Of a stretch of DNA of 64,000 nt, positions 1 to 64,000 are shown in pieces. The stretch spans positions 39,458,920-39,522,919 of the forward strand of contig NC_134234.1 in the NCBI RefSeq assembly GCF_965152275.1, in the 5' to 3' direction. A model generated the notes under the pieces. It was not told the DNA's origin and ran no database searches. It saw nothing but the letters and a program-made list of their open reading frames with translations. Within the stretch, counting starts at the first letter, position 1. Every line of letters begins with the position of its first letter. The stretch is from Natator depressus (Eukaryota). A program made the translations under genes and the position numbers.

Positions 1-250
1 CGAGATGTGTTGTTCATGTCCATTCCACAACCCGCCCTTCTTCCCCACTGTTGGAACTGGGGGTGGGTGGGGGGAGCCAGCAGCATCCCTTATACCATGC
101 CATGTGGGTGCCACTCCAGAGGGCGCTAGAGCCGGTCCCCTACAGATACTGCTGAGGGAAAAACTTCTGGCACCGGTGCATGTGGCGAGCACACACACCT
201 GATATGGAATGGACATGAGCAACACATCTGGAAGAACACCAGTTATAGAA
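1..250. repeat. Partial hairpin repeat of the same family as 62946-63255
   Basis: cgagatgtgttgttcatgtccattcc ... ggaatggacatgagcaacacatctggaagaac are inverted arms. Confidence 0.75.
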
Positions 251-1485
251 CAGGTAACTGTCTTTTGCTGTTCCAGCCCTTGGAGTTATGGATCCTTTTA
301 AGCCGTGGGGGAAAGTAATAAAGAAAAGAACAAAACAGTTCTTTAGTTTGTTTTCCTTGTGGGGAGTTCAGTCTCTCATTTTTTTCCCTTTTTATCAGGG
401 TTGCTTAGTTTAAACTAACAATTAGTCAATCAAGATTTGCCTCTTAAGTGGTGGCCACATACTCCCAGTCTTCCCTTAAGTGGGGAGGAAATGAGAGTGC
501 CCTATTTCCTTCTCCGGGCTCCAATCCTCTCCTCTCTGTTTGAAAGTCATCTCTACTCTTCCATCTCCTTGCACTGAGCACCTCCTTGTCCCACTGAAAG
601 CCTTAGGGTTGTCCTGATTGGCTATACCTGATTAACTCCCTGGGTGGATCCTCTTATTCTAGAATTCTGAACTTATTTAGTTTTGGAACAGAAGTTGATT
701 AAGCAAATTCAGAATAATTCATCCACACAAAGAATTAATCAGGAATAGCTATTTCGCTAGAATTGTACTTCAGACCTTAATTCGAATTAACTTCTACTGT
801 AGACAAGCCCTTAGCTTTTTATAGTCTCTCTGTTCATAAGACACAGCTGGTGGTTTCACCTTTCCATTACCTAAAAGGCCACAGCTGTAGTCTCTCTCAA
901 GTCCTGGCATCAATCTCTCATGGTTCAGCTGAGGATGGAATACGCTTATCTCACCACACCATAGATGGTAACCCATGATCATACTGGAGGGAGGGATTCC
1001 ACTATGTGAGAAAATTTTAAAACAATATATACAATCTTTTGTATAACAAAGTAGCTACCTGCTGTAATAAACTTGTATTGAATTCATGGGTTTCTTTTCT
1101 GTATTTCCACTCTATAAGCTTAGAGAATGCAGGTTTTTGAACTTTTTAACCAATCACAAGTGCAAGGCAATACAGTGCACGCTTGTTCTCCTGTTTTCTT
1201 CAGGAAAAACATTGTACTTTTAAATAAATCTATTTTTAAAATTTTAGGACTTCTCATGAAGTGACGATGGTGTTGATGATTTTAAAAAAATAAGGCTGTT
1301 TCTTATTTCCGAGAAACAACTCCATTCTGATTGCAGAAAAGTAAAATAGATGGAACAGAAAACACTTGCAAACTTCCCACTGAGTTTCTTACCCACACGG
1401 GATGAGCTAGGGATACAGGACAGGGAGAGCTACTCTCGTCAAGATTTAACACAAACAAACAAAAACCCCACTTGCTCACCTCTAG

Positions 1486-7139: not shown

Positions 7140-9096
7140 TCTATACTTAAAACTTAGGTCAATGAAGCTACAGCATGCAGGGGTATGAAGGCCAAAAAAG
7201 AATTTGAAGAACAGCTAGCCAAAGACTCAAAAAGTAATAGCAAAATTTTGTTTAAGTACATCAGAAGCAGGAAACCTGCTAAACAACCAGTGGGGCCACT
7301 GGACAATCAAGATGCTAAAGGAGCACTGAAGGATAAGACCATTGTGGAGAAACTAAATGAATTCTTTGCATCAGTCTTCACGGCTGTGGATGTGAGGGAG
7401 ATTCCCAAACCTGAACCATTCTTTTTAGGTGACAAATCTGAGGAATTGTCCCAGATTGAGGTGTCATTAGAGGAGGTTTTGGAACAGATTGATAAACTAA
7501 ACAGTAATAAGTCACTAGGACCAGATGGTATTCACCCAAGAGTTCTGAAGGAACTCAAATGTGAAATTGCAGAACTACTAACTGTAGTCTATAACCTATC
7601 ATTTAAATCAGCCTCCGTACCAAATGACTGGAGGGTAGCTAATGTGATGCCAATTTTTAAAAAGGTTTCCAGAGGTGATCCCAGCAGTTACAGACTGGTA
7701 AGCCTGACTTCAGTACTGGACAAACTGGTTGAAACTGTAGTAAAGAACAAAATTGTCAGGCACATAGATGAAGATAATTTGTTGGGGAAGAGTCAACATA
7801 GTTTTTGTAAAGGAAAATCATGCCTCACCTATCTACTAGAATTCTTTGAGGGGATCAACAAGCATGTGGACAAGGGGGATCCAGTGGATATAGTATACTT
7901 ACATTTTCAGAAAGCCTTTGACAAGGTCCCTCACCAAAGTCTCTTAAGCAAAGTAAGCTGTCATTGGGTAAGAGGGAAGGTTCTCTCATGGATTGGTAAT
8001 TGGTTAAAAGATAGGAAAGAAAGGGTAAGAATAAATGGTCAGGTCTCAGAATGGAGAGAGGTAATAGTAGTGGGCCCCATCGATTTCAACATATTCATAA
8101 ATGATCTGGAAAAAGGGGTAAATAGTGAGGTGGCAAAATTTGCAGATGATACAAAACTACTCAAGATAGTTAAGTCCCGGGCAGACTGCAAACAGCTACA
8201 AAAAGATCTGTCAAAACTGGGTGACTGGGCAACAAAATGGCAGATGAAATTCATTGTTGGTAAAAGCAAAGTAATACAGATTGGAAAACATAATCCCAAC
8301 TATACATATAAAATGATGGAGTCTAAATTAGCTGTTTCCACTCAAGAAAGAGATCTTGGAGTCATTGTGGATAGTTCTCTGAAAACATCCACTCAATGTG
8401 CAGAATGTTGGGAATCATTAAGAAAGGGATAGACAATAAGAAAATATTGCCTCTATAGAAATCCAGGGTATGCCCACATCTTGAATAGTGTGTGCAGATG
8501 TGGTGGCCCCATCTCAAAAAAGATATATTGGAATTGGAAAAGATTCAGAAAAGGACAACAAAAATGATTAAGGGTATGGAATGGCTTCCGTATGAGAAGA
8601 GATTAATAAGACTGGGACTTTTCAGCTTGGAAAAGAGATGACTAAGGGGGGGAATATGATAGAGGTCTATAAAATCATGACTGGTGTGGAGAAAGTAAAT
8701 GAGGAAGTGTTATTTACTCTTTCTCATAACACAAGAACTAAGGGTCACCAAATGAAATGAATAGGCAGCAGGTTTAAAACAAACAAAAGGAAGTATTTTT
8801 TCACACAACGCATAGTCAGTCTGTGGAACTCTTTGCCAGAGGATGTTGTGAAGGCCAAGACTATAACAGGGTTCAAAAAAGAACTAGGTAAGTTCATGGA
8901 GGATAGGTCCATCAATGGCTATTAGCCAGGATGGGCAGGGATGGTGTCCCTATCCTTTGTTTCCCAGAAGCTGGGAATGGGCAACAAGGGATGGATCACT
9001 TGATGATTACCTGTTCTGTTCATTCCCTTGGGGGCACCTAGCATTGGCCACTGTCAGAAGAGAGGATACTGGGCTAGATGGACTGTTGGCCTGACC
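7140..9096 (+). mobile_element. CR1-family LINE, 5'-truncated copy (RT domain and 3' UTR)
   Basis: ORF 7185-8432 shows CR1 ORF2 reverse-transcriptase motifs (FADDTKL, NPNYTYKM). The CR1 3' region follows in shifted frames and ends ...ggatactgggctagatggactgttggcctgacc. Confidence 0.8.
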
Positions 9097-11560
9097 CATA
9101 GAATCATAGAATATCATGGTTGGAAGGGACCTCAGGAGGTCATCTAGCCCAACCCCCTGCTCAAAGCAGGACCAATCCCTGATTAAATCATCCCAGCCAG
9201 GGCTTTGTCAAGCCTGACCTTAAAAACTTCTCGGGAAGGAGATTCCACCACCTCCCTAGGTAACGCATTCCAGTGTTTCACCACCCGCATAACGAAAAAG
9301 TTTTTCCTAATATCCAACCTAAATCTCCCCCACTGCAACTTGAGACCATTACTCCTTGTTCTGTCATCTGCTACCACTGAGAACAGTCTAGATCCATCCT
9401 CTTTGGAACCCCCTTTCAGGTAGTTGAAAGCAGCTATCAAATCCCCCCTCATTCTTCTCTTCCGTAGACTAAACATCCCCAGTTCCCTCAGCCTCTCCTC
9501 ATAAGTCATGTGTTCCAGTCCCCTAATCATTTTTGTTGCCCTCCGCTGGACTCTTTCCAATTTTTCCAAATCCTTCTTGTAGTGTAGGGCCCAAAACTGG
9601 ACACAGTACTCCAGATGAGGCCTCACCAATGTCGAATAGAGGGGAACGATCACGTCCCTCAATCTGCTGGCAATGCCCCTACTTATACATCCCAAAATGC
9701 CATTGGCCTTCTTGGCAACAAGGGCACACTGTTGACTCATATCCAACTTCTTGTCCACTGTAACCCCTAGGTCTTTTTCTGCAGAACTGCTGCCGAGCCA
9801 TTTGGTCCCTAGTCTGTAGCGGTGCATGGGATTCTTCCGTCCTAACTGCAGGACTCTGCACTCATCCTTGTTGAACCTCATCAGATTTTTTTTGGCCCAA
9901 TCCTTCAATTTGTCTAGGTCCCTCTGTATCCTATCCCTACCCTCCAGCATATCTACCACTCCTCCCAGTTTAGTGTCATCTGCAAACTTGCTGAGGGTGC
10001 AATCCACACCATCCTCCAGATCATTTATGAAGATATTGAACAAAACCGGCCCCAGGACCGACCTCTGGGGCACTCCACTTGATACCGGCTGCCAACTAGA
10101 CATGGAGCCATTGATCACTACCTGTTGAGCCCCACAATCTAGCCAGCTTTCTATCCACCTTATAGTCCATTCATCCAGCTCATACTTCTTTAACTTGCTG
10201 GCAAGAATACTGTGGGAGACCGTGTCAAAAGCTTTGCTAAAGTCAAGGAACAACACGTCCAGTGCTTTCCCTTCATCCACAGAGCCAGTTATCTCGTCAT
10301 AGAAGGCAATTAGATTAGTCAGGCATGACTTGCCCTTGCTGAATCCATGCTGACTGTTCCTGATCACTTTCCTCTCCTCTAAGTGCTTCCGAATTGATTC
10401 CTTGAGGACCTGCTCCATGATTTTTCCAGGGACTGAGGTGAGGCTGACTGGCCTGTAGTTCCCAGGATCCTCCTTCTTCCCTTTTTTAAAGATGGGCACT
10501 ACATTAGCCTTTTTCCAGTCGTCCAGGACCTCCCCCGATCGCCATGAGTTTTCAAAGATAATGGCCAATGGCTCTGCAATCACATCCGCCAACTCCTTTA
10601 GCACTCTCGGATGCAACGCATCCAGCTTCATGGACTTGTGCTCGTCCAGCTTTTCTAAATAATCCTGAACCACTTCTTTCTCCACAGAGGGCTGGTCACC
10701 TTCTCCCCATGCTGTGCTGCCCAGTGCAGTAGTCTGGGAACTGACCTTGTTCGTGAAGACAGAGGCAAAAAAAGCATTGAGTACATTAGCTTTTTCCACA
10801 TCCTCTGTCACTAGGTTGCCTCCCTCATTCAGTAAGGGGCCCACACTTTCCTTGACTTTCTTCTTGTTGCCAACATACCTGAAGAAACCCTTCTTGTTAC
10901 TCTTAACATCTCTTGCTAGCTGCAACTCCAGATGTGATTTGGCCTTCCTGATTTCACTCCTGCAAGCCCGAGCAATATTTTATACTCATCCCTGGTCATT
11001 TGTCCAATCTTCCACTTCTTTTAAGCTTCTTTTTTGTATTTAAAAGCAGCAAGGATTTCACTGTTAAGCCAAGCTGGTCGCCTGCCATATTTACTATTCT
11101 TTCTACACATCAGGATGGTTTGTACCTGTAACCTCAATAAGGATTCTTTAAAATACAGCCAGCTCTCCTGGACTCCTTTCCCCCTCATGTTATTCTCCCA
11201 GGGGATCTTGCCCATCAGTTCCCTGAGGGAGTCAAAGTCTGCTTTTCTGAAGTCCAGGGTCTGTATTCTGCTGCTCTCCTTTCTTCCTTGTGTTAGGATC
11301 CTGAACTCGACCATTTCATGGTCACTGCCTCCCAGGTTCCCATCCACTTTTGCTTCCCCTACTAAGTCTTCCCGGTTTGTGAGCAGCAGGTCAAGAAGAG
11401 CTCTGCCCCTAGTTGGTTCCTCCAGCACTTGCACCAGGAAATTGTCCCCTACATTTTCCAAAAACTTCCTGGATTGCCTGTGCACCGCTGTATTGCTCAG
11501 TATGGATGCTCTTATGATCTTATGAAGAATCCACGCCCCTGAGCACTGCAGTTATGCCAA
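9097..11560 (-). mobile_element. CR1-family LINE, minus strand, tail-to-tail with the previous copy
   Basis: The 580-aa ORF 9183-10925 (-) is a complete CR1 RT domain (FADDTKL...YLEYCVQFW...). ORF 11021-11485 (-) is the upstream ORF2 linker. The 3' UTR at 9097-9182 carries the ...gggctagatgacctcctgaggtcccttccaacc... tail motif. Confidence 0.8.
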
Positions 11561-37100: not shown

Positions 37101-38058
37101 AACTAGATTTTTTAAAAATCATGATTAACCACAGTTTCAATTTACATTTATTATAAATATTTTTGGATGTTTTCTACATTTTCAAATATTGATTTCAGTC
37201 ACAACACAGAATACAAAGTGTACAGTGATTACTTTATATTATTTTTATTACAAATATTTGCACTATAAAAAGATAAACCAAAAAATTAGTATTTTTCAAT
37301 CCATCTCATACAAGTACTGTAGTGCAATCTCTTTATTGTGAAAGTGAAACTTATAAGCGTATAATAATTTTTTAACATAACTGCACTTAAAACAATGTAA
37401 AACTTTAGTGTGTACAAGTCCACTCAGTTCTACTTCTTGTTCACCCAGTTGCTAAGACAAACAAGTTTGTTTACATTTATGAGAGAGAAGGTGTGGGAAT
37501 CTCTCTCACATCTTCTGTAGTGAAGTCTGATGTGAAGAATTTATTTAGCTTTTCCACAGTGGCCTTGTGTTCCTTGAGTGCTCCTTTAGCAACTCGATTG
37601 GTAGCCCATTGATAGTCTTCCTACTTCTGATATACTTACAAAAATTTTGCTGTTAGTGCTTGTGTCTTTTCCTAATTGCTCTTTAAATTCTTTTTTTGGC
37701 CTGCCTAATTATACTTTTACAGTTAACTTGCCAGAGTTTATGTTCCTTTCTATTTTCCGCAGTAGGATTTTATTTCCAGTTTTTAAAGGGATGCCTTTTT
37801 GCCTCTAACTGCCTCTGTTGTTTTGCCATGGTGGCATATTTTTGGTCCTGACCTACTCTGTCATTTCTACATATTTTATACCCTAGTATTACCATGTGCG
37901 CCTTTGCACCTGTTGGCTTTCCCTCATCCCTTAGTTTAAAAACTCCTCTACAACTTCTTTAATTTTACATGCCAGCAATCTGGTTCCTTTTTGGTTTAGA
38001 TGGAGCCCATCCTTCCTGTATAAGCTCCACCTTTCCCAAAACCCTCCTCCAAAAACCA

Positions 38059-38277
38059 TCATCTCATCCATGCTTTGAGACCCAGCAATTCTGCCTGTCT
38101 AACTGCGTCTGTGCATGGAACTGGAAGTATTTCAGAGAATGCTACCGTCGGGTTCCTGGACTTTAATCTCTTACTTAGCAGCCTAAATTTGGCCTCCAGG
38201 ACTTCTCGCCTACCTTTTCCTATGTCATTGGTACCTACATGTACCATGACCACCAGCTCATCCCCAGCATTGCACAT
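38059..38277 (-). mobile_element. SGNH/GDSL esterase-like ORF fragment, as found in ORF1 of CR1/L2-clade LINEs
   Basis: MCNAGDELVVMVHVGTNDIGKGRREVLEAKFRLL contains the GTND block of SGNH hydrolases. It is an isolated fragment. Confidence 0.35.
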
Positions 38278-40006
38278 AAGTCAGTCTAGATATCTCAAGA
38301 GATTCACAACGTTTGCGCCTGGCAGGCAATTCACCATGTGGTTCTCCTGGTCATCACAAACGCAACTATATTTCTAATAATTGAATCCTCCATTACTATT
38401 ACCAGTCTGTAACATACCAAGGCACAATCTAGACCAGTGGTCACCAACCGGTTGTTCTTCTTTGAGTAGTGTCCCTATGAGTGCTCCGCTGTAGGTGTAT
38501 GTGCGCTCTTGCGCCTCTAATCAGAGATTTTTGGTAGCAGTGTCCGTTGAGCCCATGCATGTGCTCTCCTTCCCTCCTGGTCTGGCACTGCAGGGGCGAA
38601 GCCCCCTCACTTCCTTCTCAACCGCCTTTGGCCTCAAACAGAGCGAGCAGTCATCCCTTCCTTATCTGTGTCATTAGCATAAGTAGTAGTCGTGTTTTTG
38701 TTTCTTTTGGTCTCCTTAATCGTTAGTGTTTCATTTTTATTTACTCCTTTGGGATTAAAGGAGAAAAAAAGAGAAAGAAAGAAAAAGAACTTTAGTTTCC
38801 TGCCCCGTCTGAGGGCACCCCCACCTCCCAGGCATTTAGTAGACTCTAAGTTTTTCAGTTTATTTTTTAAAAAAAAAGAAAATAAAAAGGAAAAGAAGAG
38901 AAGGAGTAAAGAAGACCTTTTTCTGCATTCCCCACTGCTAGAGGATGATAGCCCCCTGCCAAGGGGCATGCCTGGTTCTCCCTGCTCCAAGAGGTGCCTC
39001 TCCTACAAGGAGTCAATTCCTGTAATGGCCAGACACTCTTACTGTGTCTGGTACCTGGGAGAGCCTCACGGAAGTGCTTCACCTGCCACAGCTAAAACAG
39101 CAGTCTCGCAGGAACTGGGACCTGAAGTTAAAACTCCTCCTTATGGAGAAGGTACTTCAGTCTCCAGGGGACTCCGGGGTTGACCCCGGATCATCCCTGG
39201 AGCCTCTAAAGGTACGTCTACAGTACGAAATTATTTCGAAATTATTCTATTCAAATTTTTGGAAGCAATTTTATACATTTGGTCTTGTGTGTCCCCACTA
39301 AAGCACGTGAATTCGGTGGAGTGCATTCACAGTACCGAGGCTAGCATCGAATGTCAGAGCGGTGCACTGTGAGTAGCTATCCCACAGTTCCCGCAGTCCC
39401 CGCCGCCCATTTGAATTCTGGGTTAAGCTCCCAGTGCATGATGGGGCAAAAACATTCTCGCAGGTGTTTCTGGGTGTGTGTCATCAGTTGCTCCTCCCTC
39501 CGTGAAAGCTACGGCAGACAATCGTTTTGCGCCTTTTTGGTGTGCAGACACCATACTGCTTTCAGTAGATGGTGCAGTACGGTGCACTGCTTCTCTCCTA
39601 GTACTTTGAATCCACCTCGCATTTCCTCTTGTCTTTCTATGTAATCTCTATAAGTATCTACTCTTTCTATTCCTCATCAACCGCTTCCACTGCCAACTCT
39701 GCTTGGCCATCATGAACCGAGCAGCAGAGCTTCCACCGCCAGCTCTGCTCTCCCGCTCTTGCCGCGCTACCGAGCTTCTCCATGTTGTCTGTCTTGGATC
39801 CCGCCTCCGTGAAAGCTACAGAAGACAACCATTTCCCACCTTTTTTTGTTTATCGTGAACCAAACAGCACCTCTTCCGCTGCCACTCTGCTCTCCTACAT
39901 TTCATGCCCTTTTTCCAGGATTACCCGTGCAGGCGCCTTAGCGCAGCAAGCCGTGGAGCCGCTATAGTTTTGACCATTGTAAATACCTCGCCCATTATCC
40001 AGCAGT

Positions 40007-41408
40007 ATGTGCAGTACCTGCAAAACCAGGCGAGGAAGCAACAATAGCACGATTACTATACTGCTGAGGACATGGATCCAGACATTCTTAGAAGCACAGC
40101 ATGTGGCAATTGGGAGATCATGGTGGCGTTGGGCCAGGTTCATGCCGTGGAACGCTGATTCTGGGCCCGAGAAACAAGCACAGACTGGTGGGACCGCAAA
40201 GTGTTGCAGGTATGGGATGATTCCCATGGCTGCGAAACTTTCGTATGCATAGGGCCACTTTCATGGAACTTTGTGACTTGCTGTCCCCTGCCCTCAAGCA
40301 CAAAGACACCAAACTGAGAGCAGCCATCACAGTTGAGAAGCAAGTGGCCATAGCCCTGTGGAAGCTTGCAACGTCCAACAGCTACCGGTCAGTCGGGAAT
40401 CAGTTTGGAGTGGGCAAATGAGGGGAGAGGGATAGCTCAGTGGTTTGAGCATTGGCCTGCTAAACCCAGGGTTGTGAGTTCAATCGCTGAGGGGCCATTT
40501 AGGGATCTGGGGCAAAAAAAATTGGGGATTGGTCCTGCTTTGAGCAGGGGGTTGGACTAGATGACCTCCTGAGGTCCCTTCCAACTCTGATATTCTATGA
40601 TTCTATGAAATCTACTGTGGGGGCTGCTGTGCTGCAAGTAGCCAATGCAGTCATTGACCAGCTGCTATCAAGGGTAGTGACTTTGGGAAATGTGCAGATC
40701 ATCGTGGATGGCTTTAATGCACTGAGGTTCCCTAACTATGGCGGGGCGATAGGTGGAACGCATATCCCTATCTTGGCCCCAGAGCATCGGGGTGGCCAGT
40801 GTGTAAACTGCAAGGGGTACCTTTCCATGGTGCTGCAAGCACTGGTGGATCACAAGGGACGTTTCACCGACATCAACGTGGGATGGCCGGGAAAGGTGCA
40901 TGACGCTCGCATCTTCAAGAACTCTAGTCTGTTTGAACAGCTGCAGGAGGGGACTTACTTCCCAGACCAGAAAATTACTGTTGGGGATGTTGAAATGCCT
41001 ATAATTATCCTCGGGGACCCAGCCTACCCCTTAATGCCATGGCTCATGAAGCCGTACACAGACACCCTGGACAGTAGTAAGGAGCAGTTCAACTATAGGC
41101 TGAGCAAGTGCGGAATGGAGTTAGAATGTGCTTTTGGATGTTTGAAAGTGCACTGGTGCAGTCTACTGACTTGGTTAGATCTCAGCACAACCAATATTCC
41201 AATCGTAATTGCTGCTTGTTGTGTGCTCCATAATATCTGTGAGAGTATGGGGGAGACGTTTATGGTGGGGTGGGAGGTTGAGACAACTCGCCTGGCAGCC
41301 AATTTCGCACAGCCAGACAACAGGGCAATTAGAAGAGCGCAGCAGGGCGCACTGCACATCAGAGAAGCTTTGAAAGCCAGTTTCATGACTGGCTGGGGTA
41401 CGGTGTGA
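40007..41408 (+). pseudogene. Harbinger transposase, copy 2, disrupted
   Basis: It is homologous to 28910-30160 (..FWARETSTDWWDRKVLQVWDDS.., ..PWLRNFRMHRATFMELC.., GAIGGTHIPILAPEHRG..). It has a stop near 40140, a frameshift near 40225, and a SINE insertion at 40414-40608 that splits the ORF. Confidence 0.8.
40414..40608 (+). mobile_element. tRNA-derived SINE with a CR1-type tail, inserted in the transposase ORF
   Basis: tRNA-like head gggatagctcagtggtttgagcattggcctgctaaacccagggttgtgagttcaatc (A and B boxes). The tail ggttggactagatgacctcctgaggtcccttccaactctgatattctatgattctatg is shared with the CR1 3' UTRs at 9097-9182. Confidence 0.8.
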
Positions 41409-41554
41409 CAGTTGTGTTTGTTTCTCTTGAAGTTACCCGCCCCCTATATATATGAAGGGAAATAAAGTCACAATTGTTTAAAAAACGTTCTTTATTATTT
41501 GTTGCACAACACATTGAGAGAAATCAGAAGATAGACCCGGGGGCGGTAATTGGG

Positions 41555-43202
41555 TTAAGGGGGTGGAGCAGGAGGGAAGGACAAGTCCAGAAACCAAATC
41601 AAAATTTCGGATATGCCAGCTTTCTGCTGCTTGTGCAATCGTCTGGGGTGGAGTGTGTGGGTCCCTGTAGCCTTCCCGCCGCCCCCCCGTGTTCTTGGGC
41701 GCCTGGTTGAAGAGGCTATGGAACTTGGGGAGGAGGGAGGGCGGTTATACAGGGGCTGCAGCAGCAGTCTGTGGGCTTGCTGCCTTTTCCGCATTAGATC
41801 CACCATATAGCGGAGCATGTCAGTTTGCTCCCCCATGAGCTTGACCATAGCATCCTGCCTGCTCTCATCGCATGCACCCCTCCTCTCTTCCTGTTCTTTT
41901 AACACTTTACAGGACTCTGCAATTGTTTGCCTCCACACATTCAGCTGGGCCCTATCAGTGTGGGAGGACTGCATGAGCTCGGCGAACATGTCGTCCCGAG
42001 TTTGTTTTTTCCACCTTCTAATCTGGACCAGCCTCTGGGACGGAGTAGATAGGGGCCGCATTGAAATATTTGCACCTGCGGGAGGAGAAAAAGGGAGGGT
42101 AGTATTTTAAAAGATTAATTTTAGAGAACAAAGGTGACACTCTTTCCCAGTGAAACAGGCAATTCATAGTACACAGCACATGTTCTTTCTGTACAAGGTC
42201 ACATTTTGCCTCTTACACTGAAGTGCCTGCCACTTTGGTGTGAGTAAGCCATCACACATGGCCGGGCAACAGAATTCAGCTTGCAGGCAGCCATGTTAAG
42301 CCCTAGGGGCACACAGGTTCTGCTTCTTCCAAATTCATTTCAATGCTTTCAAACTGCCGGGCCCCCTTTCCCATAGCAAGCAATTCCTGGTGGGTTTGCC
42401 ATATAAAAGGAGGGCCTGTGGGCTTTCTGGGATGATTGCTTCACACAACACACACCCTCACCCACTGCATGGCTCCGATGAGGCTCTGAGCAGGGATGAG
42501 CCATTTAAACTAAACGCGAACAGCCCCGTGCGGCTGGGTTTTCCCCCACCCCTCACCGCGTGGCTCCATTCAGGCTCTCACTCACCAGAAATGCCTTCTC
42601 CAGGGTCATGGTCTGGGAGCCCACCTTGGGAGTCGGGGGAGGCTATTGGGTCCAGCGTTAAGAATAATTCCTGGCTAGGGTTGGGAAACGGATTCCCCAC
42701 TTGCCACCTGTGCACTGTCATCCTCCTCCTCCTCCTCCAATAACTCATCCTCCTCGCTCTGTGCAACTCCCCCCTTGCAGGTGTCCATGGACAGTGGTGG
42801 GGTAGTGGTGGCATCACCCCCCATAATAGCATGCAGTTCACGATAGAAGCGACATATATGGGGCTGTGACCCAGAGTGCCTGTTCACCTCCCTGGCTTTT
42901 TGGTATGCTTGCCTGAGCTCCTTGATTTTTGTACGACATTGCTCTGTGTCCCTGGAGTAGCCTCTTTCCGTCATGGCCCTGGAGACTTTAGTGTACGTAT
43001 TTGCGTTTCTTTTTTTGGAACATAGTTCTGCCATAACAGATTCATATCCCCAACATGCAATGAGATCCAGTACCTCCCGTTCAGACCATGCTGGAGCTCT
43101 TCTGCGAATCCGGGACTGCATGGTCTCTTGTGATGGTGGAGTCTGTATGGTCACCTGTGATGGTGGACTGTGCTGATGGTCACCTGTGCTGATGGTGACC
43201 AA
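41555..43202 (-). CDS. Harbinger-associated Myb/SANT-like DNA-binding protein gene, apparently two exons
   Basis: ORF 42675-43202 (-) includes WSEREVLDLIACWG...CRTKIKELRQAYQKAREVNRHSGSQPHICRFYRELHAIMG (Myb-like) and an acidic tail. ORF 41555-42061 (-) encodes the C-terminal part. Putative intron: donor CAA|gtgggg near 42650 and acceptor tttctcctcccgcag near 42060. Confidence 0.5.
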
Positions 43203-46200
43203 ACAGGAAATTAAATTAAAAAGTTCCCTGAGCTTTTACTGCCTACCTGGCTAGTGCATCAGAGTTGAGAGTGTTGTCCAGAGCGGTCACAAGGGAGCAT
43301 TCTGGGATATCTCCCTGAAGCCAATATCGTTGAATTGCGTCCACAGTACCTGTAACCCAGAACTGCGATCTCGATTTTAGCGCTACTCCACTTGCCAAGG
43401 TGGAGTACAGAAATCGGATTAAAGAGCCCTTTAAATCAAAAACACCGGTTTGGTTGTGTGGACGGAATCCATTTTATTTCAAATTAACTCGGCTAATTCC
43501 GAAATAACCATGTACTGTAGACCAGGCCTAACTTCAAAGGGGATAAAGTCATGAAAAAACACAGCAGACCCCCTGTAAAGGCTCATAAAAAGAGGCTCCG
43601 AGTTGTTGGTCAGCCAGAGGGACTCCCCAATGCAGTCACCTCAGTACCAACTGCACCAGCAACTCTGAAGCACGGTACCGAGAAGGGGGCCTTCACTATG
43701 AGCTCTGCTCTGCAGCACCAGAGTAGCCAGGGGCTTTGGCAGTCAGGCTCTAAGGCAAGGGTACCGCCCCCTAAGGAGACAGACAATTACTGTACCGTCT
43801 CTAAAAGAGCGGCACAGAGAAAACCTGTGGTACTAGGTATGACAAAACTCCTACCCTATGGAGTGCTCTGCACCTTCCCAACCATCAGTGCTGACAACAT
43901 ACCACAGAGTGAGCCCATGGTACCACATGAGCTCTGGTACGCTTGAGACCTGTTTCCCTGGTACCCAGGGAAAGACAATTACTGTACCATCTCTAAAAGA
44001 GTGGCACCAACACACCTTTCTGTACCGGGCGCAACAAAACTCTCATTTATGGAGTGCTCTGCACCTTCTCAACCATCGGTACCGACAAAGTACCATGGAC
44101 ACTCCTCCGCAGTACCCAGTGAGCCCAGGGTACTGCATGAGCTCTGTTACCCTGGAGACCTGATGGTTCGGGAAGTACTGCAATCCCCATTACTCGGTAC
44201 CAGGGCCCCGGTACCAAGCACATCCCGGCACCTGGAATCGCTCTTAGCACCAGGTCGTGTACCACCAATCTCCCAGTTAGTGCCGCGCTTACCCAGTGAC
44301 GAGTCTGACAGTGCCCAGGAGGAGGTCATTTCCCTGGCCTCTCATCGTGGCCCACCATCACAATACAAGGGCCCTCCCCAATTCCATCGAGCCAACTCAC
44401 AATTGTGATACGGGCCCCCTGGAGTAACCCCACCGCCCATGCCTGCCCTCCTCCCCACCACCCCGCCCCCATGGCCATATTGCAATCCTTGGGCAACATA
44501 CACACATGTTGCGGCTGTCCAGTGTCTCTCAGAGAGAGTCCACCAGATGGTCTGCTACAGCCTGGCTGTCCAGAGTCCCTGAGCCAGGGGAAGAGGAAGC
44601 TTTTTCAGAACAGGAAGAAAGACTCGAAGGTGAAGTTACCCGCTCCAGAAAACTTCTCCTCATCTCCACCAGATGAGGCTGCAATGCCTCCCCCGCCATC
44701 ACTAGGTGATGATTTTAAGAACTTTCTGTATCTTACCAAGAGGGTGGCAGATGAGCTGCAGAGTCCCCTACATGAGATGGCAGATACCCATCACAAGTTG
44801 GTGGATATTCTGCACACCTCTTCCTCATGCAGAGTTGCCTTCCCAGTTAATTCTAGATCCTACCAAAGTCATCCAGCAGACACCAGCCTCCATCACACCA
44901 ACCAGCAACAGAGCCAAAAATTAATTAAAAAAAAAATACTACATCCCTCCCAAAGAGGCAAACTTCCTGTTTCAACATCTGCAACCCAACTCCATCATAG
45001 TGGGTGTGGTTAATGCACAAAGCAAGCAACATAATGCCAAGTCGACCCCATACGCTCGGGCTTAGCAGGATGGCATGTTTGTCGGCGACATTACCGTTTA
45101 GAGTAATGAATTACCAAACTGTCATGGTCAAATAAAATTTTATTAATTATGGGAAACTCAATGCGTTTCTGGAGCATTTACTGGAGACAAAAAAGGAGCA
45201 GTTTCACACCATTCTTAGACAGGGTCAGTTAATAGCCAGACTGGTGCTAGAGACAGCACTGGATGTAGCTGATACAGCAGCCCGCCCAGTCTCCATGACA
45301 GTGGTACTGAGGCAGGCTTCTTGGCTACACCTTTCTGGATTTCCCAAAGAGCTGCAGAAGACTTCCTGTTTGAAGGGCCCAAACTCTTTGCAGAGAAGAC
45401 AGATTCTTCTCTCCACATCCTGAAGGATTCCCAGATCACATTACACTCCCTAGGAAACTACACTGTGGGACAGAAGAGAAGATATACCTCTCAGCCACAG
45501 CACAGATCACAATCTCCTCAATACCCACCATCTCAGTGCTGTTATTAGCCCTGGTGTAAGAGAACCAGAGCTCAAAAGCAGAAGCAGTCCACGACCTCTG
45601 AAACCGCCTCTTCTAAGCGCTTTTGACGGGTTGGTCAAGGGCCTGAACAATTATACCTTTCAACATCAGCTGCCACCTACACACTTGTCACCTTCAGAAG
45701 TCACCTGGCCCTATTTCACAGCAGTTGTGAGAATATCCCCTCTGACAGATGGATCCTGGAGATTATTTTGAAGAGTTACACCATTCAATTCATGTCCCTC
45801 CCCATTCCAACCCTCCTTCCCCGTCCCCCTTCAGGGACCCTTCTCATTAGAACCTACTTCATCTGGAAATATATCATTTGTTATGCCTAGGGGCCATTGA
45901 ACCAGTTCCGGTTCAACTCAGGAGCAAGGGGATTTACTCTCATTTTCTGATCCACAAGGCGAAGGGAGGTTGGAGGCCCATTCTAGATCTAAGGGCATTA
46001 AACAAATATGGGAAGGTGCAGACATTCAAGGTGGTGACACTAGCAGCCATTATTCCAGCTCTAGAGCAAGAAGATTTATCTCCAGCCCTCGACCTACAAG
46101 ATGTGTACTTCCATATCTCAATACAACCATCGTACAGGAGATTTTCTACGATTTACCTTTGGTGCAAGACCATTATCAGCACAGACTGCTCCACCCAGGG

Positions 46201-48939
46201 TATTCTCCAAGGTTCTCTTCATTGTAGCAGTGCACTAACCCCGGTACAGCAACTGGAGTTTATCAGCATCAACCTTGATACAGTACAAGCGAGAGCATTC
46301 CTCCCACTACACAGACTCGCCACCCTGGGACAAATGCTTCCCTAATAGGCTGGGGAGCTCACCTACACAACCACAAGGTTTAGGGCAAATGGCCATCCAC
46401 AGACGTCCATATCACTCTTTGGGAGCTAAGGGCTGTTAGGAATGCCTGTGCACACTTCCTGCCTTTCATCAAGAACACCCACATGAAAGGCATGATGGAC
46501 TTAACATGACCTGTATGTTTTACATAAATCGCCAAGGGTGTGCCAGATCTCTCTCCCTCTGCAAGGAAGCACTCAAACTTTGTAATTGATGCACCCATCA
46601 CAATGTGCTCATCTCAGCTGTCTATCTACCAGGGATACAGAACATGACAGCCAACTGTCTCAGTCAGAATTTTTGTCACGACCATGAGTGGGTACTAAAC
46701 TCAGAGGTGCTTCAAGATATATTCGCCCTTTGGGGAACTCTGACTATGGACCTCTTTGCTACTTCCCAGAACAAAAAAGGTGCTCATTACTGCTCCAGGG
46801 CTGGCCTGGGGAAACATTCACTGGGAGACACCCTCATCAGTTTCCTCTTCTATCCAAGGTCCTGTTAAACATTCAGCGAGACAAAGCAAGAGTTATCCTG
46901 ATTCCTCCTCCTTGCCATGACAAGTCTGGCTCCCTTACCTGACACAGATGGCAATATGCCCTCCTGTTCCTCTTTGGCCCATTCCTCACCTTCTCTCTCA
47001 AAACAATGGGCTGATCCTTCACCCCAGCCTGCGGATTCTCCACCTCCAAGCTTGGCTCCTTCTTAGTTCCAAGGCTTAGAGGCAGAATGCTCTGACGAGC
47101 TGAAAGACATGTTGCTACACAGCCAAAAGTTGACCACCCCACATACTTACTTACAAAATGGAAACGATTCCAAGTTTGTTGTCATTCTAAACACATAGAC
47201 CCAACCTCATCTTCCCTCCCTCTGATTTGACACTACATTTTAGACCTCAAGAGGTCAGCACTCTCTCACAGCTCCCTTAAGGTACATCTCACAGTGAAAA
47301 TGGCATTCCACTGCCAGGTAGACAGATTCTTGGTGTTTGCTCACCCGCTGATGTGTAGATTCCTTAAGGGCATTGGGAATCTCTTCCTGCATCAGCCTGG
47401 GATCTTAATCTAGTTCTCAGGGCTTTGACTAGACCTCCCTTTGAGTCCATGGCAACTTGCTCTCTCTTACATCTGTCCATGAAAACAGCATTTCCAATTG
47501 CCATTACCTCAGCTAGGCACATAGGAGAAAAAGCGGTCCTGATGGCATACCCACCATTCACGGCCTTTTTTAAAGACAAAGTAACCCTAAGGCCATATCC
47601 CAAGTTTCTCCCTACTTTCTCTGCACTTTCCATATGAATCAACAGATTCATCTCCCTGTTTTTTCCCAAAACCGCATTGTGATAACAGGAAGACAATTCT
47701 GCATATGCTGCATGTTAGAAGGACATTAGCATTGTGCTTGGACAGAACTAAGGACTTTAGGAAATCCCCTAAATTCTTCCTTTCGTCCACAGAAAGATCC
47801 AAAAGCTCTGTGAGATTGGCTCAAAGACTATCCAAATGGGTCTCTGGTTGCATTAATCACTGTTATCAAGGGTGGAATCTGCTTCCATCCAGAGTCCATG
47901 CGCACTCCACAAGGTCAATTTCTACCTCAGTCACATTACTTAAAGATATCCCTATCGCAGTAATCTGTAGAGCAACGACTTGGGCCTCTGCCCATACTTT
48001 TGCAGAACATTATGCAATCACTTAAGATTTGGCCCCCAACGCCATCTTTGACTCCACAGTACTCTCTGTAGTGACAGACTCCACTCCGAAGTCCCAGACT
48101 CCAGTGGTGGGTACTGCTCGGGAGTCACCTATAGTGGAGCACCCATAGGGATATTACTCGAAGAAGAAGAGGAAGTTTCTCACTTTGTGCAGTAATAATG
48201 GTTCTTCGAGATGTCTGTCCCTGTGGGTGCTCCACAACCAGCCCTCCTCCCCAATATTTTGGAGTTCTCTATAGGGCTCTGCAGTGGAAAGAGAAGTGAG
48301 GGGACTTCGCCCGCGCAACGCTAGATAGCCTCGAGGCAGACCACGAGGGAGGGAGAGCACATATGTGGGCTCAACTGACACTGCTACCAAAAATCTCCAA
48401 TTAGAGGCACAGGGGCACACATACACCTACAGTGGAGCACCCTTAGGGACAGACATCTCGAAGAACCATCGTTACTGCACAAAGTGAGTAATTTCCTCAT
48501 TGCAATTGACTGGTCGATCCTGGAGACTCTCCCAGTCGATCACGATCTCTAGGCGCTAAAAGCCTGGTGGTGTAGCGGGGCTGCCGCTAAGGCAGGCTCT
48601 CTGCCTGCCCCGGCCCCATGCCGCTCCCGGAAGTGGCCAGCACACCCCCACAGCCCGGGGAAGGGGAAGGTGGGCACGGGTCTCTGCACACTGCCCCTAT
48701 TTGCAGGCACCGCCCCTGCAGCTCCCATTGACCAGGAATGTGGAACGGTAGCCAGTGGGAGCTGCAGTGGCAGTGTCTGCAGACGGGCAGTATGCGTACC
48801 CACGTGCCCCCCACCCCAGGGGCCGCAGGGGCGCACTGGCCCCTTCCGGGAGCAGCATGGGGCCAGGGCAGGGAGGGAGTCTGCCTTAGCCCCGCTGCAC
48901 CACCGACCGGGAGCCACCCGAGGTAAGTGCCACCCGGTG

Positions 48940-49260
48940 GGAGCCCACACCCCAACCCTCCTCCTGGAGCCAGCACCCCATACCGCCTCCTGCAACCAAA
49001 CCCCCTCCTGCACCCCAAGCCTCGGCCCCAGCCCTGAGCCCTGTCTCAGAGCCAGCAGGCCATACCCCCTCCTGCACCCCAACACTCTGCCCCAGTCAGG
49101 AGCCCCCTCCTGCACCCAAACTCTCTGCCAGAGCTTGTACCCCTCACTCCCTCCTGCACCCCAATCCCCTGCTCCAGGCTCAGCCTGGAGCCCCCTTCCA
49201 CACCACAAACCCCTTGGCTCCAGCCCAGACCCCGCACCCCCTCCCGAACCCTAACCCCCT
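48940..49260. repeat. GC-rich minisatellite, unit about 50-60 bp
   Basis: cccctcctgcaccccaa(c/t)(c/a)c(t/c)ctgcccca-type units are repeated. The overlapping long ORFs on both strands are artefacts of low complexity. Confidence 0.75.
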
Positions 49261-49734
49261 GCCCCAGCCCAGTGAAAGTGAGCGAGCAACGGAGAGAGGG
49301 GGAGATGGAGTGAGCCGGATGGGGCTTTGGGGAAGGGCTGGAGCCTCAGGGAAGGAGCAGGATAGATCCTGGGTTGCCATTTAAATTCAAAAAGTGATCT
49401 TGTGCATAAAAAGGTTGGAGACCACTGCTCTAGACTAAAGAGTAGCTGTGCCACCCTTGCCCTGCAATCTTGGGTGCCTTACGATGCCATGCTGAAGGAG
49501 TTCCCACCTGGCTTGCTCACAAACAGCCTTCCAGCGTGCAAGCCATACCCTGAGTATTTGTGTGTAACTGCAGCCTGCCAACCAGATTTGGGTTACACTC
49601 CAGTTCTCACCAGCCTTGGTTATACTGCAGCGTGACCCCAACATACCCCCAGTCTTAGATTTCCCCCCAGAAATGTATGTCCTTTACTGCCCAGCCCTCT
49701 CCTGGACAACAGAAGTTATATAAAGTCTGTTTCA

Positions 49735-61355: not shown

Positions 61356-62945
61356 GGCTGGAGGAGCCCCAAGTTGGCCGAAGCCCCACCTGGGGGAGCC
61401 CAGGGCTGGCCGAAGCCACGCTGTGCCTCCCCTCCCCGGACCCAACCACGCAGGGAAAAGCGTCTGTTAGAAGACACTTTTGATATGCCCCATGCAGATT
61501 CCAGGGCAGCTGCACAGGCGGTATGGGCCTCCTCAGCCACCCTGGAACCTGCCTGGGGCATGATAAAGCAAAAACTTTGCTGCGAAACCCTGCAACTGGG
61601 GGACCGGCGGCCATGGCAGCACCAGGGGAGGCAGAATTTCCCCCGGTCTATTATACCCGCCACCCATGCTGGGCTCCTAGCCCTGGCTACCAATTCCTGC
61701 TCTAACCATTAGAAATAGGGTGACCAGATAGCAACTGTGAAAGAATGGGATGGGGGGTGGGGGTAATAGGTGCCTATACCTATTACCCCCCAAAAATAGG
61801 ACTGTCCCTTTAAAAATGGGACATCTGGTCACCCTAATTAGAAAGAACCAGCCATGTCCTGGGTACTGACAGTCTGAGCAGCGCAAATAGAAACTCTAAG
61901 AGAACTACAGCTGATACATGAAACATGAATTCTAGAAAGGCCAATTTCTCTCTGATGAACATAGTGGGAGCCCTACAGACCTTGCAGGCCCAGGCTGCCA
62001 CCCTGCAGGTACAGAATGTGGTCCTACAAGCTCAAGCCATGCCACCTTCAGCTCCAACCCCACTCCCTGCAAGCCCAAGCTTCCTGCCTGGCAAATTTAA
62101 TAGCAATCATGACAAATTTTGTGGGTTTTTCAATCAGTCATAGCCCAGTGACCAAGCCCGAGTAGTTACCTGACTGATTATCAGCCTACTTACGGGGGGA
62201 GGCCCTAGCTTGGGTGTCTCTGCTCCTAGAACAATCAAGCCTGCTTCTAAGACAATTTGAGGACATTTTTAGAGTTATGATGATCTTTGATGATTCAGGT
62301 TGTGAACGTATGGCCAAAGCTATGCTTCACCTGTTGCAGCAGGGACCCCAGCCAGTGCTAAATATGCAGCAGAGTTCTGACACTTTGGTAGTAGACACTA
62401 GGTGGACTGCGGGCACCCAGAGTTATCATTTCTGACTTGACCTCAACAATGATAGATGAACTGGCACAGGTGGAATCCCCATCCAGCCTTAATGCTATAG
62501 TCGACCCATGCATCAAGATCGATGACTGCCTGACCAAATGTCGCTGAGAAAAAAAGATAGTCCTCCTGGCTCCTGCCAGCCCTTCCGGCTCCAGCCTCCC
62601 ATATCACCAGTCCTTCCTCTGTTGCTCAAATGCATGCAAGTCAATCAGGTCTGGCCCCACCTCTCTGACATGGAGAAGAATCAGTGCTGGGAACCAGGAC
62701 ACTTTGCATCAAGCTGCCCTGTGAAGGTCCAGGCTGCACCCTGATCAGAAAACACCAACCTTCAGCCCTGATAGGGGGAGTCCAGGCTGGGTTGGTGCTA
62801 TTCCCCTTTCCCCAGCAGGCTACTCGAACACGCTGGTTTTGGTAGAGTGGTGTTACAAGCTGCACGTCTGTGAACTCTGAGCCCACCTCCAGGGATACTG
62901 CTTGAGAGTCACCTAGAATGGAATCGACATGAGCAAGTGCTCAAA

Positions 62946-63255
62946 GAAGAAAAAACGATTACCTACCTTTCGTAACTGTTGTTCTTCGAAATGTGTTGCT
63001 CGTGTCCATTCCATTACCCGCCCTCCTGCCCCTCTGTCAGAGTTGCCGGCATGAAGGAACTGAGAGGGTGTAGGGCCGGTGGCGCCTGATATACTGACGC
63101 ATGAGTGCAGCCCTCAAGGGGGTGCCACAGCCAGCCCTAGGGATATATTGCTAAGGCAAAAGTCTCTGACAACTTTGCATATGGGCGCGCACACACCTAG
63201 GATGGAATGGACATGAGCAACACATCTCGAAGAACAACAGTTACAAAAGGTAGGT
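62946..63255. repeat. Hairpin: 55-bp inverted arms around a loop of about 200 bp, related to DIRS-like terminal repeats
   Basis: 62946-62996 cgattacctacctttcgtaactgttgttcttcgaaatgtgttgctcgtgtccattcc is the reverse complement of 63199-63255. The same family occurs at 1-250. Confidence 0.85.
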
Positions 63256-64000
63256 AACCATTTTATCTGAAGCCCCAGTCCTGCAAAGATGTATACTTGC
63301 TTAAATTTAAGCATGTGAGTAATCCTTTCAATGAAACCATGCATGTGCTTAGAGTTATACCTCATCAAAGCCCAGCTCTCACTCCCATTGACTTAATTAG
63401 AAGCAAGCCCTATACTATTAATGCTATAATTTATTACTGTTGCCAGATTTTCTGTTACTATTTGATTATGAGTGAGCTATTTATTTATTTTGCTAATTTT
63501 CTTGCATATATTAGTAGGTTCAAGCTGAATCCATACTGTGAGTGGAAAGTTAAAAAAAACACTGACTTTGAATCTTCCATAGATTTTGTAGATTGTAGAT
63601 TTTTAAAATGATTTAAATAGGCATTTTAAAATTAACAAATGTTGATATGTAATCTGCAAGTGGTATCAAATTGATCAACTTCTACCCTGGAATGATAACC
63701 TTGAGAGATCAGTTACAACAACATCTCTCTCCCATGCAGTCCAAAATCCAAGGAGAGGAGTTAAAGACTTGTTAAAATGGAGAAGAAAAAGACCATGTGT
63801 GTATTCCTGGTTCCATTTTAGTCAATGACAAAACTCCCATGGATTTTAATGAGGCCAGAATTTTACCCCATATTGTCCGAAACTTACAATTCATAACCCG
63901 ATGAAAGAAGGAAAAAAGGTACATTAACTGTGAAACCTGACTGAAAGTTGCAGCTACTGAAGAGTGAATAATTCACAACCATTAGTCCTAAGGCCTGATC

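What the first reader, a model, noticed from the sequence alone, without database searches (positions are those of the whole stretch)
38405..48480. DIRS-like tyrosine-recombinase retroelement of about 5.8 kb (excluding the nested Harbinger) with inverted terminal repeats
Inverted terminal repeats (38440-38680 against 48230-48480), the motif DLQDVYFHI in the RT region, DLFATSQNKK in the RNase H-like region, and a tyrosine-recombinase C-terminus (HSTRS...AHTFAEHY at 47705-48025) are hallmarks of DIRS elements. Short hairpins with related arms at 1-250 and 62946-63255 look like solo terminal-repeat derivatives. DIRS elements are patchily distributed in amniotes.
Basis: partly seen in the sequence, partly recalled or inferred. 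Interest (0 to 1): 0.5.

Follow-up and report, generated by a model that had tools for sequence, protein, structure and literature searches.

The report
Dead DIRS1-like retrotransposon, Harbinger inside
This is a decayed, immobile copy of a DIRS1-like tyrosine-recombinase retrotransposon in what is almost certainly a turtle genome, split by a later Harbinger DNA transposon; such elements are already known to be abundant in turtles, so it is ordinary.

Summary
Window 38455-48498 is one DIRS1-like retrotransposon, 5,722 bp once a nested Harbinger (39210-43528, TAA target duplication) is removed. It has the defining DIRS1 layout:
- Inverted terminal repeats at 38455-38628 and 48280-48466, with an 87% core (blastn E 1.5e-35).
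- A 32-nt right extension.
Its halves abut exactly: 48126-48168 pairs with the outer end of the left repeat, and 48169-48235 with the outer end of the right repeat.

The coding order is ORF1 (zinc-finger-like plus LAP2alpha-like gag), RT, RNase H, methyltransferase-like domain, tyrosine recombinase. This is collinear with an apparently intact 6.1-kb element in Pelodiscus sinensis. A structural model of a recombinase homologue matches Cre, XerH and lambda integrase (E down to 1.8e-7).

The copy is dead. It has many stops and at least nine frameshifts, the RT YxDD box is deleted, and the first catalytic arginine of the recombinase is now histidine.

Two corrections. DLFAT lies in the methyltransferase-like domain, not in RNase H. 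The "hairpins" at 1-258 and 62893-63268 are 3' ends (ICR plus right repeat) of a second DIRS1-like family, not solo repeats.

DIRS1-like elements with inverted repeats are already documented in turtles (PMC4495291). Interest is low.

The parts
38455..38628 (+). Left inverted terminal repeat (lITR). Its outer 43 nt (38455-38497) pair with ICR-L.
38969..39206 (+). ORF1 N-terminus: a decayed zinc-finger-like (Cys/His) region beginning MPGSPCSKRC. It is interrupted by the Harbinger.
   Evidence: BLASTP to the Pelodiscus ORF1 N-terminus gives E 6e-8 and 32% identity; sequence
39210..43528 (+). Nested PIF/Harbinger DNA transposon, a later insertion and not part of the DIRS. TAA target-site duplication at 39207-39209 and 43529-43531. 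DDE transposase ORF at 40605-41408 (+). Myb/SANT ORF at 42675-43202 (-).
   Evidence: Pfam: DDE_Tnp_4 1.8e-29, Myb_DNA-bind_4 1.3e-19. TIR (I5). Limits and TSD from comparison with a Natator depressus copy that is 85-91% identical.
43532..44641 (+). ORF1 linker region, Pro/Ser/Thr-rich and decayed. It contains a two-copy tandem duplication of about 192 nt at 43778-44162.
   Evidence: (D2, D3, D5)
44642..45509 (+). ORF1 gag-like remnant (LAP2alpha-like), read across three frameshifts.
   Evidence: tblastn with Pelodiscus ORF1 gives E 2.8e-27. That ORF hits Pfam LAP2alpha at 5.4e-10.
45573..46318 (+). Reverse transcriptase remnant with its core at 45830-46235. The segment carrying the YxDD box (Pelodiscus pol residues 272-318) is deleted.
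   Evidence: tblastn: 60% identity, E about 1e-34. RVT_1 in 16 of 16 homologues. Weak RVT_1 on the copy itself, E 0.043.
46303..46620 (+). RNase H remnant (GWGAH...ELRAV...YINRQG). About 93 residues upstream of it (pol residues 349-441) are deleted.
   Evidence: RT_RNaseH in 15 of 16 homologues.
46690..47061 (+). Methyltransferase-like (Dam-like) domain remnant containing the invariant DLFA motif.
   Evidence: tblastn: 54% and 49% identity to P0001 residues 476-587 and 627-675. Weak Pfam Dam hits in 11 of 16 homologues, covering DLFAT.
47156..48073 (+). Tyrosine recombinase remnant in three frame pieces. HxxR (HSTR), W and the terminal Y are kept. Arg I is now His (ARRxxE to ARHIGE), and there is a frameshift at the conserved LPK lysine.
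   Evidence: Profile hmmsearch over positions 3-287 of 296, E 6e-15, 5e-35 and 5e-38. Alignment. Fold of the homologue matches Cre, XerH and lambda Int.
48126..48168 (+). ICR-L, the reverse complement of the outer end of the left ITR (38455-38497), 86% identical.
48169..48235 (+). ICR-R, the reverse complement of the outer end of the right ITR plus its extension (48432-48498), 91% identical. It abuts ICR-L at the circle junction.
   Evidence: (I2)
48280..48466 (+). Right inverted terminal repeat (rITR).
48467..48498 (+). Right extension (rE). It has no counterpart in the left ITR but is complementary to ICR-R. The element ends at 48498.
62893..63268 (+). 3' end (ICR-L, ICR-R, right ITR and extension) of a second, related DIRS1-like family. 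No recombinase coding lies upstream.
1..258 (+). Right-ITR end of the same second family, 69% identical to 62987-63258. It is cut by the window start.

Best explanation
Window 38455-48498 is a single, old, non-functional genomic copy of a DIRS1-like (order DIRS) tyrosine-recombinase retrotransposon in a turtle genome. A Harbinger DNA transposon later inserted into its ORF1.

How the family works rests on established knowledge, namely the Cappello model and the experiments in PMC7192593, summarised in PMC3266345. It was not tested here.
1. A sub-genomic transcript is reverse-transcribed by the element's RT/RNase H into single-stranded cDNA.
2. The missing termini are rebuilt by annealing the ITR ends to the internal complementary region. 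The two abutting halves of that region template the right-end/left-end circle junction.
3. The resulting circular double-stranded DNA is inserted by the element's Cre-like tyrosine recombinase through site-specific recombination at a 3-nt sequence. No target-site duplication is made. The 3-nt sequence is TTC in this family, judged from the Pelodiscus copy.

Shown here: the ITR/ICR/extension anatomy, the domain order, the homology of each domain, the tyrosine-recombinase fold of the family, and the decay of this copy.

Inferred: that this copy arrived by the pathway above, and that it can no longer move or encode any protein.
For: ITRs: blastn E 1.5e-35, 87% core.

ICR: the halves abut exactly at 48168|48169 and pair with the two outer ITR ends (E 6e-9 and 8e-22). 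A right extension is present. The flanks show no target-site duplication (GGTTG| versus |ATTGC).

Coding: the remnants run in the order ORF1, RT, RNase H, MT-like, YR on one strand.

Intact relative: Pelodiscus L002 5342-~11487 has the same terminal sequence and 95% ITRs. Its ICR halves overlap by GAA and it has TTC on both flanks. It scores LAP2alpha 5.4e-10, RVT_1 2.3e-20, RT_RNaseH 5.6e-6, weak Dam and weak Phage_integrase.

Recombinase fold: an AlphaFold model of family member P0035 (pLDDT 72) has tyrosine recombinases as its top 43 Foldseek PDB hits, best E 1.8e-7.

Family size: 19,193 representatives at E<=1e-3.

Decay: 57 stops in one frame of 43523-48498, at least 9 frame changes, the YxDD segment and about 93 further pol residues deleted, and Arg I changed to His.

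Host: the closest proteins are all from turtles.

Literature: PMC4495291, PMC3266345, PMC7192593.
Against: - Pfam scans of the decayed copy itself do not pass thresholds (RVT_1 E 0.043; no integrase hit).
- Sequence-only support for the recombinase assignment is sub-threshold even in intact homologues (Phage_integrase best E 0.0014; Tre recombinase E 0.82). The assignment rests on the fold search and conserved motifs.
- The methyltransferase-like assignment rests on sub-threshold Dam hits (best E 0.0013).
- The expected flanking trinucleotide TTC is seen at the left end only; the right flank reads ATT.
- No comparison with Repbase or Dfam was possible, so the family name is unknown.
Confidence: 0.95

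Rival explanations
1. An LTR retrotransposon (Ty3/Gypsy-like, whose RT/RNase H is the closest relative of DIRS RT) whose repeats were misread as inverted.
For: The RT/RNase H domains belong to the same Pfam families as those of LTR elements (RVT_1, RT_RNaseH).
Against: The terminal repeats are inverted, and no direct repeat longer than 73 nt exists in 37500-49500. No DDE integrase or protease was found in the copy or in the intact relative. A tyrosine recombinase and an ICR are present. There is no target-site duplication.
Confidence: 0.01
2. A member of another tyrosine-recombinase retroelement superfamily (Ngaro or PAT-like) rather than DIRS1-like.
For: These superfamilies share the same protein classes (RT, RNase H, YR). 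PAT-like elements also carry the methyltransferase domain (PMC7192593).
Against: Ngaro and PAT have split direct repeats. Here the ends are inverted, with an ICR next to the right ITR. A Dam-like domain, which Ngaro lacks, is present in relatives and aligned in the copy.
Confidence: 0.02
3. The element is still functional, or partly so: able to move, or to supply RT or recombinase in trans.
For: The ITR/ICR cis-elements are still recognisable at 86-91%. RT can act in trans in Dictyostelium DIRS-1 (PMC7192593), so a copy with intact ends could in principle be mobilised by others.
Against: All ORFs are broken by stops and frameshifts. The YxDD region is deleted. A 4.3-kb Harbinger interrupts ORF1. 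ITR/ICR complementarity is lower than in the intact Pelodiscus copy, 86-91% against 94-95%.
Confidence: 0.02

Closest known systems
DIRS1-like retrotransposons of turtles (reported in Pelodiscus sinensis and Chrysemys picta bellii, PMC4495291); concretely the apparently intact copy at Pelodiscus CM112014.1, locus L002 5342-~11487
   Same: The terminal sequence is the same (TTCTTC..GAGTAGTGTCCC) and so is the ITR + ICR-L/ICR-R + right-extension layout. The hairpin geometry also matches: 67-70-nt arms with 192-196 nt between them. The ORF order is the same: zinc-finger/LAP2alpha-like ORF1, RT-RNase H-MT pol, YR. Protein identity is 40-60% in conserved blocks.
   Different: DNA similarity is only patchy, 66-85% in short stretches, so it is a different subfamily. 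The window copy is decayed, internally deleted in pol and carries a nested Harbinger. The Pelodiscus copy has long open ORFs, 95% ITRs and TTC on both flanks.
DIRS-1 of Dictyostelium discoideum (founding member; PMC7192593, PMC3266345)
   Same: Both have non-identical ITRs and an ICR next to the right repeat. In each, the two ICR parts are complementary to the outer ends of the left and right repeats: 33+55 nt in DIRS-1, 43+67 nt here. Both have gag, RT/RNase H/MT and YR, and neither makes a target-site duplication.
   Different: The hosts are a vertebrate and an amoebozoan. Size is 5.7-6.1 kb against 4.8 kb. ORF1 is LAP2alpha-like with a zinc-finger-like N-terminus. There is no detectable DNA similarity. 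The mechanism has been tested experimentally only in Dictyostelium.
Cre / XerH / lambda integrase (tyrosine site-specific recombinases)
   Same: The model of the family's recombinase has the same two-domain fold (Foldseek E 1.8e-7 to 1e-3, probability 1.00). The HxxR ... W ... Y motif order in the C-terminus is conserved.
   Different: Sequence identity is 11-16%. TM-scores are only about 0.4 because the domain orientation differs and the C-terminus is poorly modelled. These enzymes are not retroelement-encoded. Catalytic activity of the DIRS enzyme was not tested here.

Membership tests
DIRS1-like superfamily (order DIRS) | Inverted, not direct, terminal repeats | tested here: met
   38455-38628 against 48280-48466, 87% core, E 1.5e-35; no direct terminal repeats
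DIRS1-like superfamily (order DIRS) | [quoted passage not shown] | tested here: met
   48126-48168 pairs with 38455-38497 (86%). 48169-48235 pairs with 48432-48498 (91%). The two halves abut.
DIRS1-like superfamily (order DIRS) | Right extension beyond the ITR homology that pairs with ICR-R | tested here: met
   48467-48498 has no left-ITR counterpart but is part of the ICR-R pairing
DIRS1-like superfamily (order DIRS) | No target-site duplication; a 3-nt junction sequence on both flanks | tested here: inconclusive
   No TSD at the ends. TTC is present at the left end, but the right flank reads ATT. The Pelodiscus relative has TTC on both sides and a GAA overlap of its ICR halves.
DIRS1-like superfamily (order DIRS) | Reverse transcriptase + RNase H | tested here: met
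   Homology is met: tblastn shows 54-60% identity to proteins carrying RVT_1 and RT_RNaseH. The copy itself scores only RVT_1 E 0.043, and its YxDD segment is deleted.
DIRS1-like superfamily (order DIRS) | Methyltransferase-like domain after RNase H (absent from Ngaro and VIPER) | tested here: inconclusive
   The region is present and aligned (46690-47061). Pfam Dam hits in homologues are all below the curated cut-off (11 of 16, best E 0.0013).
DIRS1-like superfamily (order DIRS) | Tyrosine recombinase with the R..HxxR..(H/W)..Y signature | tested here: met
   Profile match E 5e-38. The family's fold matches Cre, Xer and lambda Int. HSTR, W and Y are kept in the window copy. Arg I is mutated to His and the Lys region is frameshifted, consistent with decay.
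DIRS1-like superfamily (order DIRS) | Gag-like ORF1 upstream of pol (LAP2alpha-like in vertebrate DIRS1-like elements, PMC4495291) | tested here: met
   tblastn E 2.8e-27 to the Pelodiscus ORF1, which hits Pfam LAP2alpha at 5.4e-10. The stitched copy itself gives no Pfam hit.
Ngaro / PAT-like YR retrotransposons | Split direct repeats (A1...B1 A2 B2) at the ends | tested here: not met
   Only inverted terminal repeats and an ICR were found
LTR retrotransposons (Ty3/Gypsy, BEL, Copia, ERV) | Direct LTRs, a DDE (rve) integrase and a 4-6-bp TSD | tested here: not met
   No direct LTRs. No rve hit in the copy or in the intact relative. No TSD.
PIF/Harbinger DNA transposons (the nested element) | DDE_Tnp_4 transposase plus a Myb/SANT-like second ORF, TIRs and a 3-bp TSD | tested here: met
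   DDE_Tnp_4 1.8e-29 and Myb_DNA-bind_4 1.3e-19. TIR (I5). TAA on both sides once the limits are set from the Natator copy.

The most novel reading that the evidence does not exclude
The 'ICR + right ITR' units at 62893-63268 and 1-258 belong to a second DIRS1-like family and have no recombinase coding upstream. They might not be random truncation debris. They could be a class of short non-autonomous DIRS derivatives carrying only the cis-elements needed for end restoration, mobilised in trans by autonomous elements. RT acts in trans in Dictyostelium DIRS-1 (PMC7192593). Nothing here tests this: only one complete unit is in the window, and its 5' boundary could not be compared with other copies.
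Probability: 0.07. Interest if true: 0.4.

Novelty: already known. Interest (0 to 1): 0.1.

Why it matters
It matters little beyond annotation. The locus is a clean textbook example of DIRS1 terminal anatomy (ITR, abutting ICR halves, right extension) in an amniote. It also shows a nested-insertion order: DIRS first, Harbinger later. It could serve as a teaching or benchmarking case for DIRS detectors, because standard Pfam scans fail on decayed copies and the recombinase is invisible to Pfam thresholds even when intact. No open question becomes testable because of it.

Tried and rejected
- Pfam on frame-stitched translations of the copy gave only RVT_1 at E 0.043 and nothing for gag or YR. 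Translating the raw DNA reference failed because of 57 stops.
- A profile of YR homologues against PDB sequences gave only Tre recombinase at E 0.82. Pfam on YR homologues gave sub-threshold Phage_integrase and SAM-like hits. A fold search was needed to settle the assignment.
- blastn of the ITRs against the whole window found no further copies of this family.
- Similarity of the 1-258 and 62893-63268 hairpins to this element's ITRs is marginal by blastn. It became convincing only through the collinear alignment and the shared 14-mer.
- A six-frame search of the window with the YR profile found no second recombinase, so the 62893-63268 fragment is not attached to a coding body.
- I first set the Harbinger limits from the 42-nt TIR (39216-43522), which gave no TSD. 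Comparison with a Natator copy moved the limits to 39210-43528 and revealed the TAA duplication.
- I considered using ITR or ICR divergence as an insertion clock and rejected it. The apparently intact Pelodiscus copy also has only 94-95% complementarity, so the arms are not identical at insertion.
- The Mauremys locus L001 (YR homologue P0030) showed only coding similarity and was not analysed further.

Full report
**Observation.**
The region holds a pair of inverted repeats. A 115-nt core, 38470-38584 against 48337-48451, is 87% complementary, with blastn E 1.5e-35 against the 64-kb window. A full alignment places the repeats at 38455-38628 and 48280-48466, about 78% identical overall with one 15-nt indel. 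No direct terminal repeats exist; the direct repeats found in 37500-49500 are 73 nt or less and internal.

Just inside the right repeat lies an internal complementary region (ICR).
- 48126-48168 is the reverse complement of the outermost 43 nt of the left repeat (38455-38497; 86%, E 6e-9).
- The immediately adjacent 48169-48235 is the reverse complement of the outermost 67 nt at the right end (48432-48498; 91%, E 8e-22).
- The last 32 nt of the right end (48467-48498) have no partner in the left repeat and pair only with the ICR. This is the 'right extension'.

The layout lITR ... ICR-L|ICR-R - rITR - rE is the published definition of DIRS1-like elements (PMC3266345; PMC7192593, which gives 33+55 nt for Dictyostelium DIRS-1). 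The point where the ICR pairing stops fixes the element ends at 38455 and 48498. The flanks (GGTTG| and |ATTGC) show no target-site duplication.

**The nested element.**
39210-43528 is a PIF/Harbinger transposon.
- It has a DDE_Tnp_4 ORF at 40605-41408 (1.8e-29) and a Myb/SANT ORF at 42675-43202 on the minus strand (1.3e-19). Its terminal inverted repeats were found (I5).
- The TIR alone suggested limits of 39216-43522 with no duplication. A copy from Natator depressus that is 85-91% identical aligns from 39211 to 43529. The two end alignments show the termini RGGTAYGTCTACAG...CTGTAGACCAGGSC, flanked by TAA on both sides in the window (39207-39209 and 43529-43531).
- It sits inside DIRS ORF1, so it arrived later.

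**Coding content.**
The copy is heavily decayed, with 57 stops in one reading frame of 43523-48498 and frame-hopping throughout. Direct Pfam scans of stitched translations give only RVT_1 at E 0.043 and nothing for gag or recombinase. I therefore worked through homologues.
- The stitched pol and recombinase found turtle and squamate proteins: Pelodiscus, Mauremys, Chelonia, Trachemys, Dermochelys, Rhineura and Varanus.
- The locus of the best pol hit, Pelodiscus sinensis CM112014.1 (L002), contains an apparently intact relative at 5342-~11487 (about 6.1 kb).
  - It has the same terminal sequence (TTCTTCGTCGAGTAGTGTCCC) and 152-nt ITRs at 95%.
  - ICR-L is at 11113-11155 and ICR-R at 11153-11222, overlapping by GAA. 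TTC lies on both flanks.
  - It has long ORFs that score LAP2alpha 5.4e-10 (ORF1), RVT_1 2.3e-20, RT_RNaseH 5.6e-6, a weak Dam hit at E 0.011, and weak Phage_integrase/SAM hits.
- Mapping those proteins on the window gives:
  - gag at 44642-45509 (E 2.8e-27);
  - pol at 45573-47061, with the YLDD-containing residues 272-318 and residues 349-441 deleted;
  - recombinase at 47156-48073.
- The ORF1 N-terminal zinc-finger-like region survives at 38969-39206, left of the Harbinger (E 6e-8).
- The invariant DLFA motif lies inside the Dam-like hit (DLFAT at pol residue 589, hit at residues 568-662).

**Is the last ORF a tyrosine recombinase?**
- Sequence methods alone are sub-threshold even for intact homologues: Phage_integrase best E 0.0014, SAM-like 0.00014, and PDB Tre recombinase E 0.82 with the HxxR..W box aligned.
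- An AlphaFold2 model of homologue P0035 with an 11-sequence alignment has mean pLDDT 72 and pTM 0.61, with a poorly modelled C-terminus.
- Searched against the PDB, its top 43 hits are all tyrosine recombinases (Cre/Tre, XerH, lambda Int, XerD, Tn1549 Int), with E from 1.8e-7 and probability 1.00.
- The window remnant matches a profile of this family over positions 3-287 of 296, in three frame pieces (E 6e-15, 5e-35, 5e-38).
- It keeps HSTR, the W and the terminal Y. The first catalytic Arg (ARRxxEL) reads ARHIGE, and the conserved LPK lysine lies at a frameshift (sequence).
- The family is very large, with 19,193 50%-identity representatives at E<=1e-3.

**The other two 'hairpins'.**
- 62893-63268 aligns collinearly with 48100-48498. 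It has an ICR-L-like segment, an ICR-R arm (62948-63014) and, 187 nt further on, the complementary right end (63202-63268; 91%). The same element in the main copy has 67-nt arms 196 nt apart.
- 1-258 is 69% identical to 62987-63258 and is cut by the window edge.
- A 14-mer shared by ICR-R and the right end (ACATCTCGAAGAAC, up to 2 mismatches) occurs five times in the window, against 0.22 expected. The hits are exactly at these three right ends, and the same 14-mer marks ICR-R and the right end of the Pelodiscus element.
- No recombinase coding lies upstream of 62893.
- They are therefore 3'-terminal fragments of a second, related DIRS1-like family, not solo ITRs of this element.

**Mechanism.**
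The family mechanism comes from the literature and was not tested here. RT makes single-stranded cDNA from a sub-genomic transcript. The ICR templates restoration of both termini and defines the circle junction; it is experimentally essential in Dictyostelium (PMC7192593). The tyrosine recombinase then integrates the circular DNA at a short identical sequence without a target-site duplication (PMC3266345). The Pelodiscus copy suggests TTC as that sequence for this family. The window copy shows TTC only at the left end, which is inconclusive. This copy cannot encode any of the proteins, and its cis-elements have drifted to 86-91% complementarity against 94-95% in the intact relative. I consider it dead.

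**Comparison with what is known, and novelty.**
DIRS1-like elements with ITRs, RT_DIRS1, RNase H, phage-integrase-like domains and a LAP2alpha-like ORF1 have been described in Pelodiscus sinensis and Chrysemys picta, with hundreds to thousands of LAP2alpha-like hits (PMC4495291). [quoted passage not shown] The nested Harbinger's transposase has more than 1,000 relatives at E<=1e-30; every named source among the 120 listed is a turtle, led by Caretta at 86% and Natator at 84%. The host is therefore almost certainly a turtle. All defining DIRS1-like features tested were met, or were inconclusive only because of decay or weak profiles. The rival classes (LTR, Ngaro/PAT) fail on repeat orientation.

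**Limits.**
No Repbase/Dfam comparison and no search of eukaryotic genome assemblies by DNA was possible. The family name, copy number and age were therefore not determined.

Noticed in passing
window 62893-63268 and 1-258: These are 3'-terminal units (ICR-L + ICR-R + right ITR + extension) of a second DIRS1-like family, both on the + strand, with no recombinase coding upstream. They could be truncation debris or short non-autonomous derivatives.
   Followed up: partly
window 39207-43531; L003 4305-8659: The nested Harbinger has a TAA target-site duplication and is 85-91% identical over 4.3 kb to a copy in Natator depressus. Its transposase has more than 1,000 relatives at E<=1e-30, and every named source among the 120 listed is a turtle, so the family is large and fairly young in turtles.
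   Followed up: partly
window 43778-44162: Two-copy tandem duplication of about 192 nt (75-88% identical blocks) inside the Pro/Ser/Thr-rich linker of DIRS ORF1.
   Followed up: no
window 38059-38277 (-): Short ORF just upstream of the DIRS with weak GDSL-lipase/OSK-like hits (E 0.005-0.023). From memory it resembles the esterase domain of CR1-type LINE ORF1, so it is probably a LINE fragment.
   Followed up: no
window 48586-49277: GC-rich stretch (56% GC) immediately downstream of the DIRS. It has a 71-nt inverted repeat (48586-48656 / 48820-48890, 83%) and seven degenerate copies of a 46-nt C-rich unit (48978-49277). Its nature was not determined.
   Followed up: no
L002 8762-11071 vs 7908-10049 (Pelodiscus): In the intact relative, the open frame that ends in the recombinase overlaps the pol ORF by about 1.3 kb in another frame. 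This fits the pol/YR overlap described for DIRS1-like elements (PMC3266345).
   Followed up: no
L002 3046-3156 (Pelodiscus): A perfect 47-nt inverted repeat with a 17-nt loop lies about 2.2 kb upstream of the intact DIRS. It is unrelated to the DIRS termini.
   Followed up: no
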